Of a stretch of DNA of 64,000 nucleotides, positions 10,253 through 60,086 are shown in pieces. The stretch's first letter is position 1. Each line of letters opens with the position of its first letter. The translations under genes and the position numbers were made by a program. The notes under the pieces are model-generated. The model searched no databases and was not told the DNA's origin. It saw only the letters and a list, made by a program, of their open reading frames with translations. The stretch spans positions 29,265 through 93,264 of the forward strand of contig CAVSBU010000017.1 in the NCBI GenBank assembly GCA_963726215.1, given 5' to 3'. Source of the DNA: an uncultured Chloroflexia bacterium. Its GTDB lineage: Bacteria; Chloroflexota; Dehalococcoidia; GIF9; UBA5629.

Positions 10253-11332
10253 ATGACATTCTACCCTCGATATTTAAAGGATTCGCCGGATAAATATATG
10301 AATCCATACAATTATCAAAGCCAGGAGATTCAGGCTAACCTGCAGCTGAAAGAAACGACCTCTCGCTGGCTGCGTTATGCGGTCGATTTCCCCACCGCTT
10401 ACGTATCATATAATGAAGAAAACAACGTCGTCCTGGGTGAATATTTTCAGCCGCGTAATGTCAACCGCGCCCCGTTAGCTATAATAATTCACGGATGGGG
10501 CGACCGCAGCGCAATACCATGCCAGATTACTGGCGCGAACTCTGGTCAAAAAGGGTATTGCCGCCTTTATCTTATATCTGGTGTTCCATACCAGCCGCAT
10601 GCCGGAAACCATGAAAAGCCATATGCCATATATTACCACTGAAGACTGGTTTGAAGGCTACAGGGCCTCGGTAATTGAAGTTCGCCAGATAATAGACTGG
10701 GCAAGCAGCCGACCGGAGCTGGACAAAGAGCGGATAGCCGTACTCGGCATAAGCCTCGGCGGATTCGTCTCGGAGATAGCCATGGGAGTGGATAAACGCA
10801 TCAAAGCAGGGGTATTTATGATCGCTGGCGGAAACTCGGAGAAGATAACCTGGAATACCAGGAACGAGGCTATAATTAAAGGGTCACGGCTGCACCGAAG
10901 CCGAATGCCACGAAATACGCAGTCACTATCCGCAGTATCTGGCTGAGATAGCCGAGAAGGGCTTTGGCAATGTTATCCCGTTTAAAGACTGCTTCTTAAC
11001 CGACGCCTTGACCTTCGCTCCATATCTCCGGGAACGCCCGGTATTAATGTTAAATGCGCTGTGGGACAAGACCATCCCCAAAGAGGCTACGCTCGATTTC
11101 TGGGAAGCCTGCCATAAACCTGCCATCAGTGTGGCTGCCGGGCACACACGTCACCTTCTGGCTGTGGTATCCCGTCATCGCGCGGGAAATAACCCGTTTT
11201 CTGGGCTCAACTTTCGGCACACCGCGGAAAATAATAGCTATAAAGTACCGTGGTACCAGCCGCTATTTAGACTATCAAAACATCGCTCACTGCCGAGTTT
11301 GCCTCAAGTATAGCTTTGCTGCTACAATATAA
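10253..11332 (+). CDS. alpha/beta hydrolase (dienelactone hydrolase / S9-like), multiply frameshifted; 3' end uncertain
   Basis: IIHGWGDRS, the nucleophile elbow GISLGG, and later VLMLNALWDKTIPKEA. Pieces are spread over ORFs 10253.., 10581.., 11008.. and 11054... Confidence 0.6.
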
Positions 11333-36224: not shown

Positions 36225-37005
36225 ATGACAGCCCCTCGGACTTACCAAACAGAAGCTATCATCATCAAGCGAATTAAGCTGGGCGAAGCCGATAGAATCC
36301 TTACCCTTTATACACCTGAACTGGGCAAACTGAAAGCAGTAGCTAAAGGGACACGCCGTCCTCAAAGCAAGCTTGGCGGTCACGTAGAGCTTCTCACCCA
36401 CAGCCGCCTGATGCTGGCTCGCGGCCGCAACCTTGATATCATCACTCAGGCGCAGACCATCGATAACTTTCTGCCTATAAAGGATGACTTGGAGCGTATT
36501 TCGCGCGGCCTCTATATTGCAGAACTGGTTGATTCTTTCACCGGCGAGCATATCGAAGACCGGCCGCTTTTTGACTTATTGCTGGAAACACTTGCACCAG
36601 TTGTCCCAAACAAAGGACTGCGAGCTTATCCTCCGCTATTTTGAGCTGCATCTCCTCGACCATCTCGGCTACCGTCCCCAGCTTCAACATTGTACAGACT
36701 GCAATTCACCCTTGAAGCCTGATAGCAATTTTTTCAGCTCCAGACAGGGTGGCGTCCTCTGCCACAATTGCGGTTTCAACGAGCCGGTGGCACGCCCTCT
36801 TTCCCTGAATGCCTTAAAGGTACTGCGCCTGTGGCAGAATTGTGATTTCGCCGCCGCCAGGCGAGTAAAAATAAACCAGGAGCTGGCTGCAGAGTTGGAA
36901 CAGGTGATGCGGGAATATATCAAGTACCTCCTGGAGAAGCAGCTCAAGTCAACAGCCTGGCTGGATAAACTGAAACGGCACAACTCAGCCCAAATAGAGC
37001 CGTAA
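36225..37005 (+). CDS. recO: DNA repair protein RecO (frameshift near 36600)
   Basis: TEAIIIKRIKLGEADRILTLYTPELGKLKAVAKG (OB fold). The C-terminal zinc motif is CTDCNSPL...VLCHNCG. Confidence 0.85.
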
Positions 37006-37609
37006 TCCCCTCTCCCTTGACAAGCTTTGCACCAAAAGTGCCTCCTGTTTCAAAAGTCATGCAGTTGTTCCAAAAGTGACAAAAGGCATCATTCTTTGCC
37101 TCGTACTAACTTCATACCATTAGGAATCCGATTAACACCCATTGCTATAGAACCATTCTACTCCAACCTGAATACCTATAGGAACTCCAACAAATATATT
37201 CTTTTGTAAATTACAGACCTCCCTATTATCTGACATAACTACAATTTCATAGTCATTGATTCTAACTTTCGAAACTCCTTATTCACTGGAACCTTGCCAA
37301 ATATTTGAGATACCCCAGCTTTTGGTCTAAATTTATAAAGAAATCTGCCACTGACAGGTTCAGTGAATGTAACGATACCTGTAGGATTTGTATTAATATT
37401 GTAATCAATGGTTTACTCTCTTTAACTTCATAAATCGGTTTTTCCGCCCGTTCATCCCACCGGAAAATATCTAACCTAAAACCACTCGCTGTAAATACAA
37501 GTGGAAAAAACGGTAAGCCAGAACTAAAGGAAAGGGAACACCAAAGAAATCATTGTGCCGAGATTAACATTCATATTCTGTCTCCTATCCCAAAAGTCAG
37601 TAGCAGTTC

Positions 37610-37803
37610 TTACAATTCCTTATAGGTAATATTCCAGTAATTGAGGTCTGGATGTTCTCTATGTTTTGATGCTATTTCTCCACCATATACAAGTTTGGCA
37701 TTTTCTAAATTCTCTGGTTCAACTTCAACTATCTTCGATCTTTATAGTCACATTTCTTACAGTGTGCCGTTAGTTCATACTTTTTCTTTGGTGATAATTG
37801 CAT
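37610..37803 (-). CDS. small hypothetical protein in the AT-rich islet (one frameshift)
   Basis: AAAGGAGAA lies 8 nt before ATG at 37803. MQLSPKKKYELTAHCKKCDYKDR continues in the next frame as IVEVEPENLENAKLVYGGEIASKHREHPDLNYWNITYKEL. I recognise no family. Confidence 0.25.
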
Positions 37804-37929
37804 TGATATTGTTCTCCTTTTTATTATTGGAACAGGGAAGTTAAGTCAGACTTTAATTCATCTAATGATTTTCTAGTGGCATCATATACCTCGGTATTTG
37901 TTCAAGATATCAGCTTCTAGTGACATAAT

Positions 37930-38457
37930 TTATCCACCCAGTGCCTGAATTATAGCGCTATTAAATACCGGCAAATCGGACGGTCTGCGCGAGGTAATAA
38001 TATTCCCATCCTTAACTAAGGGCTCATCAACCCAGATTGCACCCGCGTTTTTGAGGTCTATTGCCACCGAAGGCCACGAAGTAAGACGGCGACCTCTAAC
38101 TATATCCGCCGAGATAAGAAGTTGTGGTCCGTGACAAACGGCAGCAATCACCTTGCCTAAATCATGCGCCTTTTTTACCAGGTCAATCATAGGCTGATGC
38201 AGCCGCATCTTGTCCGGTGCATAGCCACCGGGAATAATAATGGCATCAAAGTCCTCGGCTCTCACCTTATCGGCATCGATATCGACCTTGATTGTTGCTT
38301 TGCCTCTCTTCCCCTGATAGCTTGTCTGAGAGCCGCTGCCGACGATAAATATCTGAGCACCGGCTTCCTTCATCGCCTTTAAAGGCTCCGTCAGTTCAAC
38401 ATCTTCAAAATCTTGCTCTGCCAGTATGGCAACACGCTTTCCCTTTAATGACATCAT
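37930..38457 (-). CDS. DJ-1/PfpI-family protein (type 1 glutamine amidotransferase-like)
   Basis: 175 aa. The nucleophile elbow AAVCHGPQLLISA, and IIIPGGYAPD. Confidence 0.85.
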   Translation of the reverse strand: MMSLKGKRVAILAEQDFEDVELTEPLKAMKEAGAQIFIVGSGSQTSYQGKRGKATIKVDIDADKVRAEDFDAIIIPGGYAPDKMRLHQPMIDLVKKAHDLGKVIAAVCHGPQLLISADIVRGRRLTSWPSVAIDLKNAGAIWVDEPLVKDGNIITSRRPSDLPVFNSAIIQALGG

Positions 38458-52757: not shown

Positions 52758-54877
<2,120 letters not shown>

Positions 54878-54888
54878 TACGGGGATTG

Positions 54889-54908
54889 AAAGGGGCGAAG
54901 CCCCTTTT
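54889..54908 (+). terminator. hairpin after ligA (putative intrinsic terminator)
   Basis: AAAGGGGC-GAA-GCCCCTTT plus T. The stem is 8 bp with a GAA loop. The T-run is short, only 4 nt. Confidence 0.5.
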
Positions 54909-54916
54909 CAGAATAC

Positions 54917-54965
54917 CAATCCCCTCTCCCCTTTGAAGTAGTGCCGTGCATAATGTTATGTCAAT
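54917..54965. repeat. left inverted repeat bounding the low-GC island
   Basis: CAATCCCCTCTCCCCTTTGAAGTAGTGCCGTGCATAATGTTATGTCAAT. Its reverse complement matches 59438-59487 at about 41 of 50 positions, including an exact 22-mer ATTGACATAACATTATGCACGG. Confidence 0.7.
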
Positions 54966-55089
54966 GTGTACAAGGAAGCGTGGTTAAATAAAATATTAAA
55001 ACAAACCTATAGTTAAGCAATAATAAGGCAAACTTGAATTATCTACGGAGCATTTGGTTATACAGATCAGAGTACTATTAATTTAAGTA

Positions 55090-55481
55090 TTAGGTGGCAG
55101 CATCCACCAAATCTTTCAAGAAGGCGATTAAATTTTCTTGCCTGATTTTGTTGTAGCCGAGCCATTTGTAAGTATCATGTTCTGAGGGATCAGGATAACT
55201 TCTCCGGCTATATATTTGCAGAGGTATATGATTGGAAAATTTGCCGCTTTGGCAATTGGTCGCGGTTTGCATATATATGGATAACACGAGCTATCTCGAT
55301 TATTAATCCAGTTTCCTCTTTTACTTAGAGAGATCGCTTCCTCCATGGTCTCACCTGCTTTAACTATTCCACCTGGCACATCCCATTTAAGAGGCATATA
55401 TGTGTTGGATTTTGAACGTCTGGTAATCAAATATTTACCTTTTCTTTCGATAAGTGCATGTCCTGCTACGAAGAATTTCAT
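55090..55481 (-). CDS. NUDIX hydrolase (two frame changes)
   Basis: MKFFVAGHALIERKGKYLITRR...WDVPGGIVKAGETMEEAIS, then in the next frame VKEETGLIIEIARVIHIY (completing the Nudix box Gx5Ex7REUxEExGU). The third frame reads DPSEHDTYKWLGYNKIRQENLIAFLKDLV. Confidence 0.75.
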
Positions 55482-55671
55482 AACTCACTTCCTCTAAGTT
55501 ATCTCTCAGCAATCAACCATCCAAACCAATTACTAAAACTCTAAACAACCTAACTAGTAATGTCATAGCTGGATTATCGGTGCATCATTTGCAATCATTT
55601 GCCTGAAAAGAGACTCTCGAGATACTTTAGGCTATCCCGTTTATGTTATAGTATCAAGGAAGGGAAGCTGA

Positions 55672-56835
55672 CTGAATAATAAGACTCCCAAAATACTAAG
55701 TGCCGAATACGCCACCTTTAGACAAGACGTACAGGATTATTTTACGAACGAAGTGCTTAAAGAGCATTCTTTAGTCATATTTGATCCTATGGCAGGCACG
55801 GCTCCATTAATACCCTTCATTGAAACACATGGTTACAAAGCTTATCTAAATGATATTCAGGCCTCCACTTCTATGTTAATAGAGCAAAAACATACCGAGT
55901 ATTCAAATGTTACAGTAAACATGGTTATGATTGGTTCCTTCAACAGCTGCTTAATTGCCTGTCTCCGCTAAAAGGAGAAAAGCTTTGTATCTCGGATAAA
56001 TGGATAAGTGACAATATACTCAATAATCTTATCGAAGCCTGGAAGGCTATTGGTACCTATGAAGAAGATGTCCAAACACTTTTGAGAGCTGCACTCATAG
56101 TATGTGTACGGTCTTTTTCTTCCATTACCAAATCAAAGAATCCTACTTGGCCAAAGCTTGGCGGAGTCTCATCAAATAAAGATTTTATGGAGATCGCATC
56201 TGACAGTTTGACAAGGTTTGATGAATATTATCTCTATAGTTACAAATCAAGTGAAAGGGAACCAAAACAAATCTCTCGAGAAGGTGAATGTATCTTTACC
56301 ATTCACGATGCAGCCGAACTGACCCTACCAGAGAAAGTTGACCTTATTTTTACATCCCCACCATACTGCAATAGATTGGATGGATTTACTCAATATAGCC
56401 CAGAAAACTACTTTCTATCTGCCATTAACGGTACGACTTGCAAAATGAATTTAATTGGCACCGTCAGAGTGAAGGAATATCAGACTTTCGAGGAAGATTT
56501 CGACTATTTAATTACAAATTCTGAATATGCTAAATATTTATTAAGTAGAATAAAACAATCTTCGGCTCCAGATGATCCGGCATATTATCTCAAATATTAT
56601 ACGCGTTACTTCGCCAAATTGTGCAGCGTCGTTATTAAAAGTGTGGAATTGTGTACCAAGTGGCAAATTTTATATTGTCTTACAAGATAACATACATAGA
56701 GGACAGATCATAGAGATTGATAAAATAATCGAGGAGATATTATCACTCAATAAATCGGCATGCTGCCATACTCCAAAGTTGGGAAAAGGCATCATTTGGG
56801 ATCAAGAAATATTTCTCGAGAACATGCATTTGTAA
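55672..56835 (+). CDS. SAM-dependent methyltransferase with motif I ... TRD ... SPPY order (DNA N4-C/N6-A type), two or more frame changes; start uncertain
   Basis: LVIFDPMAGTAPL (motif I-like), then about 190 aa, then VDLIFTSPPYCNRLD (motif IV). The C-terminal fragment GKFYIVLQDNIHRGQIIEIDKIIEEIL is in a third frame. No restriction endonuclease lies nearby. Confidence 0.65.
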
Positions 56836-56975
56836 AACCGCGCCATCTAGAGAAATTGTTGGTGTTTTGGAAATGATAATTGAAAAAGAATATGACTGCG
56901 GTACTCTTCAATACGATACTCTAAAACATCGTTTCTTCTTATATTCCTAAAAATGGAAGGGCTGCTATTCCTTAT

Positions 56976-57821
56976 TTGGAAACCCCAGTTTTATTGAACC
57001 TGTATCTTACTATGAACTGCAATTTATCTTGTAGTCATTGCGTAACCAAGGATTTTAGTCCGCAAACAGATTTACTCATTACAAAGCAAATATTGGACTG
57101 GATCAATAACTCTCCTTTTATTGTAATTGTCATCACTGGCGGTGAGCCACTACTCACTGAATATGAGGATGATTTAATTAGGCTTTTGACTCAGGTCAAA
57201 CAAAAAGGCCTAATTGTTGATACTAATGGCACTATTTTGCCAAGTGAAAAGGCAATAAATACTTTTCGAGATACTGATACTTTAGTGCGTATTTCTTGGG
57301 ATTCTGCTAGGCCTCAGGACGAAATATTCTTTCGCCACGTAAAAGCTGATACAAAAAGGAATTTGTCCCATAACTTAAAGTTCTATGAAAAAAAGATTGG
57401 CACGATACAGTACCTTCATGCCCAAGGTATTAATGTTGCTGTTCAAAGCGTTATTCATACACATAATAAGGAATCAATTGTTAATTTAATTCCTCTTTTA
57501 CACAAATATTCAATTAAGCAATGGTATATTCAAAGATTCATACCATCATATATGGCAAGTGATAGCAAGTTCAGTTTAAAATATGGTGAATTCGATAAAG
57601 TCGCGTCCCGGCTTAACAAATTAAGTGGACAATACAATATCGAGTGTATTATTAAAAAAGATCGTCGGCATAATTCAGTCGTTCAATTAATAGGAGAAGG
57701 GCTACTATATACACAAGGCAACAAACCCAAGGAAAAGATTAAGCTCGGGGAAATAGGAACAGAAATAAAATACTTTTATCGAGTTAGCTCCGCAGATATG
57801 CGAGAACGATATTATGTCTGA
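56976..57821 (+). CDS. radical SAM enzyme, single [4Fe-4S] cluster, viperin/MoaA-like fold
   Basis: MNCNLSCSHC (CX3CX2C), VITGGEPLL, IVDTNGTIL, VRISWDS, VAVQSVIHTHN, and QWYIQRFIP. Only one further Cys is present, so there is no SPASM or auxiliary cluster. The start is TTG at 56976, or ATG at 56873 (MIIEKEYDCGTLQYDTLKHRFFLY) if one inserted base near 56940 is removed. Confidence 0.8.
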   Translation: METPVLLNLYLTMNCNLSCSHCVTKDFSPQTDLLITKQILDWINNSPFIVIVITGGEPLLTEYEDDLIRLLTQVKQKGLIVDTNGTILPSEKAINTFRDTDTLVRISWDSARPQDEIFFRHVKADTKRNLSHNLKFYEKKIGTIQYLHAQGINVAVQSVIHTHNKESIVNLIPLLHKYSIKQWYIQRFIPSYMASDSKFSLKYGEFDKVASRLNKLSGQYNIECIIKKDRRHNSVVQLIGEGLLYTQGNKPKEKIKLGEIGTEIKYFYRVSSADMRERYYV

Positions 57822-57836
57822 ATGGAGGTAATTAAT

Positions 57837-58799
57837 ATGAGTACTGTTACGCCCAGAAAAATAAAAGACTGGTGTCAAATATTCGCGGATATTTATATTA
57901 GCCCTGATTCAAATAGAACACCGGAGCAAATGTGGATTGCAGTTGTTGCGCATTCAAGTACTATAGGAGAATGTGTGAGAAGATATTTTTTCAGTGATTT
58001 AATGACGGCTGCTTCACATGCTTTTTGTTGGTTATGCAGTTTTATAAATAGGTGTAACACATTAGAAAGTGACAATATTTTTTCATTCTCAGATTCTCTT
58101 TGCGAGATAGTTTCACTCAAATATCCTTTAGTTTGTGGTCATTGCGAGGAAGCCAAGTGTCACTGCTCACCTATTGAAATAGATAAGAAAAAAGATAAGT
58201 CCGCTAGATATGGTAATCTACTGAAAAAATGGGAAGGGGTTATCCAAGCAACCAGAGAATATTCTATTGATAACTGGAAATATGCTTTCAGAGAAATTTT
58301 CGGCGGTCAACTTCAAATTATGACCTTGGAAACTATTGGCTTTCACTTTCTCGAAGAGGTTGGAGAAGGAGCTGTAGCAGTCCGGCAACTAAGTCAGTTT
58401 AATCGTGTAATTGATAAATTCAAAGATATAAGCGCGGAATTTTTACGTGAATTATCTACAGTAAAAGGTATAGCTAACGAATATATAAAGGATGAATATA
58501 AGGAATTTAGAGAGGAAACAACTAGCGGTAAAAAACCAGATATTGATTACACCTCAATAGACCAAAAGGTAATAAAATGGAGGATAGTAGATGCGAAATG
58601 CAATATGGTAATCGAAATAGCTGATACGTTTTCGTGGTTTTGTTCACTCTTGAATAAACTTGATAATATCACGGAAAGCTCAGGATTTGAAGCCTTATCA
58701 TTAGAGAACCAGCTTAATAAGGTGTACTTTGAAGGAGATGTTGTTGCACATTGCCCTACCTGTAAAAGTAAATCTTGTTCCTGCGTTTTCTTTTCTTGA
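57837..58799 (+). CDS. tandem MazG-like (all-alpha NTP pyrophosphohydrolase) protein with two CxxC-x4,5-CxC motifs
   Basis: ATG at 57837 lies 8 nt after GGAGG. The second half has FHFLEEVGEGAVAVRQL and MVIEIADTFSWFCSLLNKL (EExxE...ExxD) and ends in CPTCKSKSCSC. The first half is a degenerate copy (AASHAFCWLCSFINRC...CGHCEEAKCHC). Confidence 0.6.
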   Translation: MSTVTPRKIKDWCQIFADIYISPDSNRTPEQMWIAVVAHSSTIGECVRRYFFSDLMTAASHAFCWLCSFINRCNTLESDNIFSFSDSLCEIVSLKYPLVCGHCEEAKCHCSPIEIDKKKDKSARYGNLLKKWEGVIQATREYSIDNWKYAFREIFGGQLQIMTLETIGFHFLEEVGEGAVAVRQLSQFNRVIDKFKDISAEFLRELSTVKGIANEYIKDEYKEFREETTSGKKPDIDYTSIDQKVIKWRIVDAKCNMVIEIADTFSWFCSLLNKLDNITESSGFEALSLENQLNKVYFEGDVVAHCPTCKSKSCSCVFFS

Positions 58800-58828
58800 C
58801 ACATTATATATGGAAGAGGAGATATATA

Positions 58829-59389
58829 ATGAAAAAGGTAAATGCCCATAACCAAAGACCAACAAGATTCGAGAATTATTTAAACCGAGCAAAGGTCGCT
58901 TCAGAAAGAAGCACGTGTTTAAGGCGAAGAGTAGGGGCCATAATTGTAAAGGGCGAAATAGAGCTGAGTTCGGGCTATGTGGGATCACCAAGAGGGGGTA
59001 CCCACTGTATTGATATAGGGAAATGTCTGAGACGGGAACTTGGAATTCAGCCAGGCACTAGGTATGAGTTATGCCGAAGTGTACATGCGGAACAAAATGC
59101 CATAATAAATGCTGCAAGGACAGGCATGAGTATCGTTGATGGAGAAATGTACATTTACAGCAAAAGACTAGAGGGAGAGTATGAACAAGCCAATATTCGA
59201 AGTAAAAAAATCTACGGCCCATGTATTATTTGTAAGAAGGAAATAATTAATGCAGGTCTGACAAAAGTCCATATGTGGGAAGATGGTGTTGGTAAAAAGA
59301 CATACACTATCAAAAATATCAGAAATTTGTTAGATAAAGAAGAAAAAGAACGATGGCAAAATGATAAATTAGAAACCAAGAATAAGTAA
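58829..59389 (+). CDS. deoxycytidylate (dCMP) deaminase, ComEB/CMP-dCMP deaminase zinc-binding family
   Basis: ATG at 58829 after GGAAGAGGAGA. RSTCLRRRVGAIIV, CRSVHAEQNAI (HAE), and GPCIICKKEIINAG (PCxxC). 186 aa with no additional domain. Confidence 0.85.
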   Translation: MKKVNAHNQRPTRFENYLNRAKVASERSTCLRRRVGAIIVKGEIELSSGYVGSPRGGTHCIDIGKCLRRELGIQPGTRYELCRSVHAEQNAIINAARTGMSIVDGEMYIYSKRLEGEYEQANIRSKKIYGPCIICKKEIINAGLTKVHMWEDGVGKKTYTIKNIRNLLDKEEKERWQNDKLETKNK

Positions 59390-59437
59390 TTTAACGCTTA
59401 TATTTCCAATCCTATCTTTCCACTCTCCTAATGAAAT

Positions 59438-59487
59438 ATTGACATAACATTATGCACGGGGCTACTTTGAAGGGGAGAGGGCAGGGT
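59438..59487. repeat. right inverted repeat bounding the low-GC island
   Basis: ATTGACATAACATTATGCACGGGGCTACTTTGAAGGGGAGAGGGCAGGGTG is the inverted partner of 54917-54965. It ends 17 nt before the pth ATG. Confidence 0.7.
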
Positions 59488-59503: not shown

Positions 59504-60086
59504 ATGAAACTAATTGTTGGTCTGGGTAACCCGGGCAGAATTTATGCTCAAAACCGCCACAATATCGGCTATCGCTGCATAAATCATCTGGCCAAGCTCT
59601 ATTCTATCGAAACAAACAGACGCCAATGCCATTCTCAAGTCGGCAGCGGTAAAATAGCCGACGTTAAAGTCGTCCTGGCTAAACCTGTGACCTTCGTCAA
59701 TCTCAGCGGCGAGGCGGTTGGACCCCTGATGCGCAGATACAAAATCAAGGCAACCGACCTGATTGTGATTTATGACGACCTCGATTTGCCACTGGGCAAG
59801 CTCCGCCTCCGCCCCGGCGGCAGCGCTGGAGGGCACAAAGGGATAAAGTCAATAATCTCGGCTCTGGGGAGCAAGGACTTCTGCCGCATCAAGGTAGGCA
59901 TCGGCCGCCCGACCAAAGAAGATGGAACAGCAATCACCGACGAGGACGCTATTGTCAACTACGTGCTCAGCGACTTCACCCCCATGAAGAGATCAGTAAT
60001 CAAGCCCGCCATCGCCACAGGTGGCCAAAGCCATCGAGTCCATCCTGACAGACGGCATAACCGCCGCCATGAACAAGTTCAATTGA
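59504..60086 (+). CDS. pth: peptidyl-tRNA hydrolase (frame changes near 59985-60020)
   Basis: MKLIVGLGNPGRIYAQNRHNIG and DDLDLPLGKLRLRPGGSAGGHKGIKSI. The C-terminus is restored in another frame as VAKAIESILTDGITAAMNKFN. Confidence 0.9.

What the first reader, a model, noticed from the sequence alone, without database searches (positions are those of the whole stretch)
54917..59487. Low-GC 4.5-kb island between ligA and pth bounded by about 50-bp inverted repeats, with no mobility genes
Directly after the ligA terminator hairpin the composition drops. Hand counts of 60-nt lines give 27-38% G+C inside the island, against 42-62% in ligA and pth.

The segment is delimited by inverted repeats. The reverse complement of 54917-54965 matches 59438-59487 at about 41 of 50 positions, including the exact 22-mer ATTGACATAACATTATGCACGG. 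The GGGGAGAGGG-type outer parts resemble generic REP-like palindromes. One reading is that a cargo was inserted into the centre of a pre-existing intergenic palindrome. Another is that the repeats are the ends of a non-autonomous element. A degenerate direct copy of the outer arm (CCAATCC...CTCTCC, 59407-59428) precedes the right repeat.

No integrase, transposase, tRNA or phage structural gene is present.
Basis: seen in the sequence. Interest (0 to 1): 0.75.

Follow-up and report, generated by a model that had tools for sequence, protein, structure and literature searches.

The report
Transposase-less defence transposon in a hairpin
The low-GC island between ligA and pth is a 4.5-kb transposon without its own transposase, from an IS1182/IS5-like family that carries defence genes among uncultured Dehalococcoidia, and it landed in the centre of a small intergenic palindrome.

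Summary
The segment 54939-59464 (4526 bp) has 36% G+C, against 49% for the rest of the window. It ends in 27-nt terminal inverted repeats (TIRs; 25/27 identical, containing the exact 22-mer). An 8-bp direct duplication, CTTTGAAG, flanks it.

The outer GGGGAGAGGG parts belong to the target, not the element. A related genome (L018) has the uninterrupted palindrome CCCCTCTCCCCTTCGAAGGGGAGAGGG at the same place. Another (L016) has ligA and pth only 48 nt apart.

The same TIR bounds 3.4-10.8-kb segments in other Dehalococcoidia contigs. Four complete ones, and one seen from one end, encode a DUF772+DDE transposase. Its best family match is IS1182, below that family's cut-off. Their other genes are mostly defence genes: type IIG restriction-modification, Rosmer, TIR effector and Panacea.

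Two more relatives carry sibling elements with different cargo in the same ligA-pth palindrome.

The window copy has no transposase. It therefore fits the definition of a mobile insertion cassette. Its cargo is exactly one conserved five-gene cassette, also found in archaea: NUDIX, a methyltransferase-like protein, a radical SAM enzyme, a MazG-like protein and a dCMP-deaminase-like protein. This is probably a cytidine-nucleotide antiviral module.

I rate it a new variant of a known kind, of moderate interest.

The parts
54888..54909 (+). ligA terminator-like hairpin (gaaaggggcgaagccccttttc). It lies outside the element. Orthologous hairpins are present in L001, L013 and L018.
   Evidence: Read from the sequence. 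Conserved in the outer flanks of L001 and L013 and in the empty site of L018.
54921..54930 (.). Left half (CCCCTCTCCC) of the pre-existing intergenic palindrome that was the insertion target.
   Evidence: The unbroken palindrome CCCCTCTCCCCTTCGAAGGGGAGAGGG is in L018/L019/L020 at the same site. The reconstructed empty site aligns with L018 and folds as an 11-bp stem with a 4-nt loop, -12.8 kcal/mol.
54931..54938 (+). Left copy of the 8-bp direct target duplication, CTTTGAAG.
Evidence: The copies are direct, not inverted: an inverted copy would read CTTCAAAG.
54939..54965 (-). Left 27-nt terminal inverted repeat. Read outward it is ATTGACATAACATTATGCACGGCACTA.
   Evidence: nhmmer TIR profile E = 2.4e-7.
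55099..55484 (-). NUDIX hydrolase gene, the first gene of the five-gene cassette. One frame change, probably an assembly error.
   Evidence: Pfam NUDIX and PADLOC PDC-S07. tblastn against the full-length homologues of L037 and L033.
55690..56873 (+). About 393-aa methyltransferase-like protein (DPMAGTAP ... TSPPY motifs). About three frame changes in this assembly.
   Evidence: tblastn against L033 and L037, translations, weak type II MTase matches.
56937..57821 (+). Radical SAM enzyme (CNLSCSHC cluster motif), distantly viperin-like.
   Evidence: Pfam Radical_SAM 7e-13. PADLOC pVip 1.6e-21. NCBIfam viperin model 62 bits against a cut-off of 180.
57822..58799 (+). 325-aa all-alpha protein with conserved EEVGE and two Cys clusters; a MazG-like NTP pyrophosphohydrolase relative. 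No Pfam family.
   Evidence: AlphaFold2 pLDDT 92.5. Only local or weak MazG/NTP-PPase fold matches. Fusions with radical SAM, dCMP deaminase, cytidylate kinase and TIR.
58829..59389 (+). dCMP/cytidine-deaminase-like protein, the last gene of the cassette.
   Evidence: Pfam dCMP_cyt_deam_1 3.9e-13. PADLOC dCTPase 1.6e-20, partial. PHROG dCMP deaminase 1.8e-26.
59438..59464 (+). Right 27-nt terminal inverted repeat, ATTGACATAACATTATGCACGGGGCTA. It is identical to both TIRs of the sibling element in L001.
59465..59472 (+). Right copy of the direct target duplication, CTTTGAAG.
59473..59481 (.). Right half (GGGAGAGGG) of the target palindrome. It is followed by cagggtgagggg and the pth start codon at 59504.

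Best explanation
The island is a non-autonomous cargo transposon, that is, a mobile insertion cassette. It consists of two 27-nt terminal inverted repeats (TAGnnnCGTGCATAATGTTATGTCAAT, read from the outer end) enclosing one five-gene cassette and no transposase.

The repeats are the ends recognised by a small, divergent lineage of DUF772+DDE_Tnp_1 transposases, closest to IS1182 and then IS5. This lineage is found in uncultured Dehalococcoidia. Its autonomous members are themselves 4.4-10.8-kb elements loaded with defence genes.

The element was inserted by such a transposase, supplied in trans or since lost, into the centre of a short REP-like palindrome (CCCCTCTCCCC-TTTGAA-GGGGAGAGGG) in the ligA-pth spacer. 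The insertion split the palindrome and duplicated its central 8 bp.

Shown:
- the element ends, the duplication and the empty site;
- the same ends around elements that carry the transposase;
- repeated use of the same palindrome by sibling elements with other cargo.

Inferred:
- that the transposase acts on these ends;
- that target choice depends on structure (hairpin or cruciform), as reported for the IS1182-family member IS1272;
- that the window copy is still mobilisable;
- that the cargo is an antiviral module acting on cytidine nucleotides.
For: 1) Ends and duplication. The TIRs are 25/27 identical. The 22-mer has 0 chance expectation. The direct 8-bp duplication is CTTTGAAG.

2) Empty sites. 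L018/L019/L020 have the unbroken palindrome. L016/L017 have a 48-nt ligA-pth spacer. The reconstructed empty site aligns with L018.

3) The same TIR in inverted pairs bounds elements that carry a transposase:
- L021, 10.76 kb;
- L026, 4.43 kb;
- L030, 6.15 kb;
- L039, 5.6 kb;
- L004, one end plus the transposase.
The more diverged transposases (46-59% identity) sit with visibly more diverged TIRs.

4) Domain content of the transposases: DUF772+DDE_Tnp_1. The best NCBIfam model is IS1182, at 141-150 bits.

5) A TIR profile hits only element ends in the roughly 470 kb of related DNA searched. The exact motif was found in only 2 of 185,579 representative genomes and in 12 metagenome stretches.

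6) The ligA-pth site holds sibling elements with different cargo in L001 and L013. Each has its own matching duplication: CTTGTCAAG in L001, CTTTGAAT/G in L013. The L001 TIRs are 27/27 identical to the window's right TIR, while pth is only 84% identical. This argues for recent, independent arrival.

7) The elements are 6-13 G+C points below their flanks everywhere.

8) Cargo elsewhere is defence-type: type IIG restriction-modification at 953 and 911 bits, RmrT plus HTH-M78 (Rosmer), PDC-S35 TIR, and Panacea.

9) Literature. A mic is defined as two inverted repeats, no transposase and a target duplication, and MIC231 is mobilised in trans (PMC3913671). IS1272 of the IS1182 family targets stem-loops, and a published model includes duplication of the loop (PMC5678879).
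Against: No transposase of this family lies in the 64-kb window, and the rest of the genome is not available. Trans-mobilisation is therefore unproven, and the copy may be stranded.

With the ends fixed at TAG...CTA, the duplication length is not constant: 5, 6, 7, 8 and 9 bp in different elements. This is unusual for a DDE transposase. Palindromic targets also make the exact boundary ambiguous.

Two reconstructed targets (L026, L039) do not fold. Hairpin targeting is a preference at best.

The transposases fall below every curated IS-family cut-off.

All comparison sequences are metagenome contigs.

The window assembly has many indels. Cargo integrity cannot be judged from it.
Confidence: 0.85

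Rival explanations
1. Stranded relic. The element arrived as an autonomous transposon. It lost its transposase in place, by deletion or by recombination between the TIRs of sibling elements that swapped the interior. It can no longer move.
For: L001 shows such decay in progress: a 146-aa C-terminal transposase fragment lies directly inside one arm. Three different cargos sit at one site. No transposase is present in the window.
Against: Both window TIRs are intact: 25/27 to each other, and the right one is 27/27 to L001's. The interior is exactly one five-gene cassette, with only about 130 and 50 nt of spacer and no transposase scar. The duplications match within each genome and differ between genomes, which favours separate insertions over one ancestral event.
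Confidence: 0.2
2. Xer/dif-like module. The 28-nt motif is a dif-like site, and the cargo is exchanged by a chromosomal tyrosine recombinase between two inverted sites, as in Acinetobacter pdif modules.
For: TTATGTCAAT resembles a XerD arm, and the conserved stretch is about 28 nt (own recollection of dif sequences). The sites are inverted and flank cargo without mobility genes. Homology breaks on both sides of the motif.
Against: Direct target duplications flank every complete element. The empty sites contain no copy of the motif at all. A cognate DDE transposase lies inside five elements. The CATAA/TTATG half-sites are 2 bp apart, not 6.
Confidence: 0.03
3. The repeat is a regulatory element (TTGACA promoter plus palindromic operator) duplicated on both sides, and the island entered by ordinary homologous recombination.
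For: The 22-mer contains TTGACA and the palindrome CATAAcaTTATG. The right copy points toward pth, and the copy in L002 points toward pyrF.
Against: The left copies point into the 3' end of ligA or into terminators. The promoter scan does not call either arm. The motif occurs only as ends of inserted segments, with target duplications.
Confidence: 0.03
4. The island is native DNA of unusual composition, or an invertible segment controlled by a site-specific invertase.
For: Inverted repeats flank the segment.
Against: Relatives with 79-84% identical pth lack the segment entirely. No invertase or integrase is present. The cargo cassette also occurs in archaea, without these repeats.
Confidence: 0.01

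Closest known systems
Mobile insertion cassettes (MIC231 of Bacillus cereus; qnrD and qnrS2 mic elements)
   Same: Two inverted repeats that match those of an autonomous IS, passenger genes in place of the transposase, and a target-site duplication. MIC231 is mobilised in trans by the IS231A transposase (PMC3913671).
   Different: The parent transposase here is IS1182/IS5-like, not IS4/IS231. The cargo is a five-gene cassette, not one or two genes. The autonomous relatives are themselves heavily loaded with cargo. Trans-mobilisation has not been tested.
IS1272 and other IS1182-family elements that target stem-loops
   Same: IS1182 is the best-scoring transposase model. Insertion is into short inverted-repeat or stem-loop sequences downstream of genes, which Wan et al. 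interpret as structure-dependent targeting (PMC5678879).
   Different: IS1272 replaces the stem-loop and leaves no duplication. Here the stem is kept, split in two, and 5-9 bp at its centre are duplicated, which is pathway c of that paper's model. The transposases score 141-150 bits against a cut-off of 270. The elements are 3.4-10.8 kb with cargo, not about 1.9-kb insertion sequences.
IS231-type insertion sequences with passenger genes (IS elements carrying cargo)
   Same: A single DDE transposase plus extra genes between one pair of TIRs. IS231 members carry passenger genes (PMC2266710).
   Different: A different transposase family. The cargo is on both sides of the transposase, reaches 9 kb, and is dominated by defence systems.
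Tn7-like transposons with defence cargo
   Same: Transposons that insert at safe sites next to conserved genes and carry very diverse defence systems (title and abstract of PMC8649781).
   Different: No TnsABC(D/E) machinery. One small DDE transposase. The target is a short palindrome, not a protein- or RNA-guided att site.
Acinetobacter pdif modules (from memory)
   Same: Cargo without mobility genes, bracketed by short inverted sites.
   Different: Those are Xer sites with no target duplication. Here there are duplications, a cognate transposase, and empty sites that lack the motif.

Membership tests
Mobile insertion cassette (mic) | Bracketed by two inverted repeats | tested here: met
   27-nt TIRs at 54939-54965 and 59438-59464, 25/27 identical.
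Mobile insertion cassette (mic) | No transposase gene inside or nearby | tested here: met
   No family hit in the island. tblastn of three cognate transposases against the whole 64-kb window gave nothing below E = 0.67.
Mobile insertion cassette (mic) | Duplication of the target site | tested here: met
   Direct CTTTGAAG on both sides. The empty site is seen in L018.
Mobile insertion cassette (mic) | Its inverted repeats are those of an autonomous element with a transposase | tested here: met
   L021, L026, L030, L039 and L004 carry a DDE transposase between, or next to, the same TIR.
Mobile insertion cassette (mic) | Mobilised in trans by that transposase | not testable with these tools
   This needs a transposition assay or population data.
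IS1182 family | Transposase reaches the curated family score (NCBIfam NF033551, 270 bits) | tested here: not met
   141-150 bits for four transposases. IS1182 is still the best model, ahead of IS5 at 72-90 bits.
IS1182 family | DUF772 N-terminal domain plus DDE_Tnp_1 / DDE_Tnp_1_6 catalytic domain | tested here: met
   Pfam hits on the L004 transposase and precomputed Pfam for the homologues.
IS1182 family (IS1272 type) | The target stem-loop is replaced and no target duplication is left | tested here: not met
   The stem is retained on both sides and the central 5-9 bp are duplicated.
IS1182 family (IS1272 type) | Targets are inverted-repeat structures | tested here: inconclusive
   7 of 13 distinct sites are GGGAGAGGG-type palindromes. 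Three reconstructed targets fold well, but those of L026 and L039 do not.
Prokaryotic viperin (pVip) | Reaches the curated viperin family score (NCBIfam NF038283, 180 bits) | tested here: not met
   62 bits for the window protein and 47.5 bits for the full-length L037 homologue. Generic radical SAM maturase models score about the same. PADLOC pVip E = 1.6e-21, but that model has no curated threshold.
Prokaryotic viperin (pVip) | Produces 3'-deoxy-3',4'-didehydro nucleotides | not testable with these tools
   This needs biochemistry.
Anti-phage dCTP deaminase | Reaches the NCBIfam NF041025 score (400 bits); kinase-like N-terminal domain plus deaminase | tested here: not met
   57 bits, and only the deaminase core matches. 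The protein is 186 aa.
Xer/dif (pdif-type) module | A single recombination site remains at the empty locus; no target duplication | tested here: not met
   The empty sites contain no motif. Direct duplications are present.
REP / high-copy intergenic repeat | Many dispersed copies per genome | tested here: not met
   For the 22-mer/TIR: 2 copies in the window, 2 in a 464-kb contig, and only element ends among the loci. The outer CCCTCTCCC/GGGAGAGGG palindrome does recur a few times (L012, L018), so that part is REP-like.

The most novel reading that the evidence does not exclude
The TIR marks a previously undescribed transposon lineage in Dehalococcoidia that is specialised as a defence-gene shuttle. 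In this reading its transposase integrates by structure-dependent attack on intergenic hairpins, duplicating the loop, which gives a variable duplication length. The ligA-pth hairpin would be a recurrent landing pad.

The window's cargo (NUDIX, methyltransferase-like, radical SAM, MazG-like, dCMP-deaminase-like) would be an undescribed antiviral system, shared by archaea and bacteria, that makes or destroys modified cytidine nucleotides.
Probability: 0.35. Interest if true: 0.7.

Novelty: new variant of a known kind. Interest (0 to 1): 0.5.

Why it matters
It explains a 'mobility-gene-free' island by ordinary transposition. It also gives a concrete handle: a 27-nt end sequence that finds cargo segments in an uncultured, genome-streamlined lineage. 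Nearly every such segment recovered here held known or candidate defence genes, so the motif could be used to look for new systems.

It extends hairpin-targeted insertion, reported for IS1272, to a distant relative that keeps the stem and duplicates the loop.

It singles out a conserved five-gene nucleotide-modifying cassette. Gene fusions of its central protein with radical SAM, deaminase, cytidylate kinase and TIR domains make the cassette a testable candidate defence system.

Tried and rejected
- dif/Xer reading of the 28-nt motif. Rejected because of the duplications, the cognate transposase and the motif-free empty sites.

- Promoter reading. The scan calls neither arm, and the left copies face terminators.

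- Structured-RNA reading. No Rfam family at gathering score in the window, L001 or L002.

Complementarity between inner and outer flanks gives z about 0 for the window ends, and the direct copy has p = 0.22.

- Phage vehicle. No TIR match in 2.9 million viral contigs.

- The five-gene cassette in L033, L036 and L037 has no flanking TIRs or other convincing repeats.

- Sequence searches of the PDB with the radical SAM, methyltransferase-like and 325-aa proteins found nothing. The family profile found nothing meaningful either.

- Fold searches of the 325-aa model gave no hit at E <= 1e-3. There were only local MazG or NTP-PPase resemblances.

- Literature searches for the cassette and for Dehalococcoidia defence transposons found no description.

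- tblastn of the transposase against plasmids gave only matches of 30% identity or less.

- Reading the ORF breaks in the island as pseudogenes. Rejected because ligA and pth show the same density of frame changes.


Full report
OBSERVATION

The region reads as described. In 300-nt windows G+C falls from 53-64% in ligA to 31-45% between about 54950 and 59450, then rises to 49-57% in pth. The segment finally delimited has 36.4% G+C, against 49.3% for the rest of the window.

The arms match at 42 of 49-50 positions. The repeat finder extends them to 69 nt at 77%. The 22-mer ATTGACATAACATTATGCACGG occurs exactly twice, inverted, even with three mismatches allowed, and none of 100 shuffles gave a match.

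No tRNA or other Rfam family is present. No integrase, transposase or phage family is present either.

ANATOMY

Related DNA resolved the arms into three layers.

The exact 21-mer occurs in only two of 185,579 representative genomes, both Dehalococcoidia MAGs. The 20-mer occurs in 12 metagenome stretches.

Aligning all copies shows a conserved block of 27 nt, (A/T)TT(G/A)ACATAA(C/T)ATTATGCACGnnnCTA. Homology breaks on both sides of it:
- At the ligA junction of the window, L001 and L013, the outer flanks are orthologous and the inner flanks are unrelated.
- L005 and L008 share the inner flank and differ outside.

Pth homologues led to contigs with the same synteny:
- L016/L017 have ligA and pth only 48 nt apart.
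- L018/L019/L020 end their 222-nt spacer with the unbroken palindrome CCCCTCTCCCCTTCGAAGGGGAGAGGG, followed by cagggtgagggg and the pth start.

The window reads CCCCTCTCCC-CTTTGAAG-[TAG...4526 bp...CTA]-CTTTGAAG-GGGAGAGGG. The CTTTGAAG copies are direct; an inverted copy would read CTTCAAAG.

Removing the element and one CTTTGAAG copy gives a sequence that aligns almost base for base with the L018 empty site. It folds as an 11-bp stem with a 4-nt loop.

So the element is 54939-59464. The duplication is 54931-38 and 59465-72. The GGGGAGAGGG-type parts are the halves of a pre-existing palindrome.

THE ENDS BELONG TO A TRANSPOSON FAMILY

L004 carries a 421-aa protein with DUF772 and DDE_Tnp_1 domains inside the segment that ends in the motif. 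L001 has a C-terminal fragment of the same protein next to one arm.

The family is small: 78 clusters in 5.8 billion proteins.

Contigs that encode homologues show the transposase inside segments bounded by the same motif in inverted orientation:

| Locus | Length | Transposase identity to L004 | Flanking duplication |
|---|---|---|---|
| L021 | 10.76 kb | 86% | CTTAAG, inside CCCTCTCC...GGAGAGGG |
| L026 | 4.43 kb | 57% | CTTATCG |
| L030 | 6.15 kb | 59% | imperfect |
| L039 | 5.6 kb | 46% | TGTAT |

The TIRs of the more distant transposases are visibly more diverged.

A profile of the TIR hits nothing but these ends in the roughly 470 kb of related DNA searched. The degenerate TIR pattern found no match in viral contigs.

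The best curated model for the transposases is IS1182, at 141-150 bits against a cut-off of 270. IS5 comes next. Plasmid databases hold only relatives at 30% identity or less.

The window has no trace of the transposase. By the published definition it is therefore a mobile insertion cassette: inverted repeats, no transposase, a target duplication, and the MIC231 prototype mobilised in trans by IS231A (PMC3913671).

TARGET CHOICE

Seven of 13 distinct insertion sites are GGGAGAGGG-type palindromes. Unbroken copies of that palindrome occur elsewhere, in L012 and L018.

The ligA-pth palindrome is occupied in three lineages by three elements with unrelated cargo. Their duplications match within each genome but differ between genomes: CTTTGAAG in the window, CTTGTCAAG in L001, and CTTTGAAT/G in L013.

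These genomes are only 75-84% identical in pth and are interleaved with the empty-site genomes. Yet the L001 TIRs are 27/27 identical to the window's right TIR. This favours repeated, fairly recent insertion over one old event. I cannot exclude cargo exchange by recombination.

IS1272, of the IS1182 family, is reported to target stem-loops as structures (PMC5678879). There the stem-loop is replaced and no duplication is left. Here the stem is kept and its centre is duplicated, which corresponds to a pathway that paper drew only as a possibility.

With the ends fixed at TAG/CTA, the duplication is 5, 6, 7, 8 or 9 bp in different elements. I read this as support for attack guided by structure. 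But two targets do not fold, and palindromic targets blur the boundary. This step is inference.

CARGO

The window assembly is indel-rich. ligA needs four frame changes, pth one, NUDIX one and the methyltransferase-like gene about three. All are frameshifts, not nonsense codons. The broken ORFs are therefore not evidence of decay.

The interior is exactly one cassette, in this order:
- NUDIX, on the minus strand;
- a roughly 393-aa methyltransferase-like protein with a TSPPY motif;
- a radical SAM enzyme;
- a 325-aa protein;
- a dCMP-deaminase-like protein.

The same five genes in the same order occur in a Bathyarchaeota MAG (L036), in L037, whose neighbouring genes (ribosomal L21e, Rpb4, Pus10) are archaeal, and in the unassigned metagenome contig L033. 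A 46%-identical homologue of the 325-aa protein is recorded from a bacterial (Thermodesulfovibrionales) MAG. None of these loci has the TIRs. So the transposon captured a module that also travels by other means.

The radical SAM protein is only distantly viperin-like. PADLOC pVip gives 1.6e-21, but the protein scores 62 and 47 bits against the NCBIfam cut-off of 180.

The 325-aa family has no Pfam model. It folds confidently as an all-alpha protein (pLDDT 92.5). It has only local or weak resemblance to MazG/NTP-PPase proteins.

That family comprises 635 clusters among 1.84 billion representatives. It occurs fused to a radical SAM domain, a dCMP deaminase, a cytidylate kinase, an AAA_18 kinase and a TIR domain.

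My inference is that the cassette acts on cytidine nucleotides in an antiviral role: production of a modified nucleotide, depletion of one, or both. A DNA-modification role for the methyltransferase-like protein is not excluded.

Sibling elements carry recognised defence genes:
- type IIG restriction-modification (953 and 911 bits);
- RmrT with HTH-M78 (Rosmer);
- a PDC-S35 TIR protein;
- Panacea, DUF3800, Mrr and DCD domains.

RIVALS

- A Xer/pdif-like module was attractive, because TTATGTCAAT resembles a XerD arm and the block is about 28 nt. It fails on the duplications, on the motif-free empty sites and on the cognate DDE transposase.
- A promoter/operator reading fails on orientation and on the scan.
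- Native DNA or an invertible segment is excluded by the empty sites.
- The live alternative is that the window copy is a stranded relic and not a mobilisable cassette. That needs the whole genome or population data.

COMPARISON AND VERDICT

By every testable criterion the feature is a mobile insertion cassette. Its parent lineage is related to IS1182/IS5 but falls outside the curated families. It keeps and splits the target hairpin instead of replacing it. In all examples seen it carries several kilobases of mostly defence cargo.

I found no description of this lineage or of the five-gene cassette.

I rate it a new variant of a known kind, interest 0.5. The mechanism is ordinary transposition. 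The value lies in the TIR as a probe for defence cargo in Dehalococcoidia, in the hairpin-centred integration, and in the candidate nucleotide-based system.

Noticed in passing
window 52830-54874 (ligA), 59504-60083 (pth): Essential genes are broken by frame changes: four in ligA and one near the 3' end of pth, relative to the homologues in L016. The assembly appears indel-rich (long-read type errors), so ORF breaks anywhere in this window should not be read as pseudogenes.
   Followed up: partly
L015 8780-10000 (Ga0568894_0000332): The same ligA-pth palindrome is split by a different 1.1-kb AT-rich insert with a 138-aa ORF. Its ends only faintly resemble the TIR, and no clean duplication is visible. 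It may be a decayed relative or another element using the same landing site.
   Followed up: partly
L019 1292-3464 versus L018 5962-7556: Two contigs encode the identical Pth but differ upstream of ligA. L019 has an N6_N4 methyltransferase plus two ORFs where L018 has the BKACE and TMEM175 genes. This is a second variable spot beside ligA.
   Followed up: no
L001 3854-3930 and 7165-7241: The arms of this sibling element are perfect for about 75 nt (the TIR plus about 48 nt inside), much longer than in other elements. A 146-aa C-terminal transposase fragment lies directly inside the ligA-side arm, which suggests an internal rearrangement.
   Followed up: partly
L023 (Logan contig, 10,778 nt) positions 8-33 and 10745-10771: The contig starts and ends in the split palindrome that flanks the L021-type element. 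The assembler apparently broke at the inverted arms, so such elements may often be assembled as isolated contigs.
   Followed up: no
P0318, P0323, P0449, P0408, P0434 (relatives of window 57822-58799): The 325-aa protein family occurs fused to a radical SAM domain, a dCMP deaminase, a cytidylate kinase, an AAA_18 kinase and a TIR domain. This links it functionally to cytidine-nucleotide metabolism and immunity.
   Followed up: partly
L032 5194-7577 versus L033 3264-7577: In two otherwise collinear contigs the cassette is complete in L033. In L032 it lacks the NUDIX and methyltransferase-like genes and has a shortened radical SAM gene. The cassette itself therefore varies within a population.
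   Followed up: no
window 37001-38000: A second low-GC kilobase (36.7%) with no ORF longer than 67 aa, lying between a 173-aa ORF (36484-37005) and a 175-aa ORF (37930-38457). Neither ORF was checked against any family library.
   Followed up: no
L018 9802-9821 and 7684-7704; L012 1971-1990: Further unbroken CCCTCTCCC-N-GGGAGAGGG-type palindromes lie in intergenic DNA of related genomes. They form a low-copy REP-like family that seems to serve as landing sites.
   Followed up: partly
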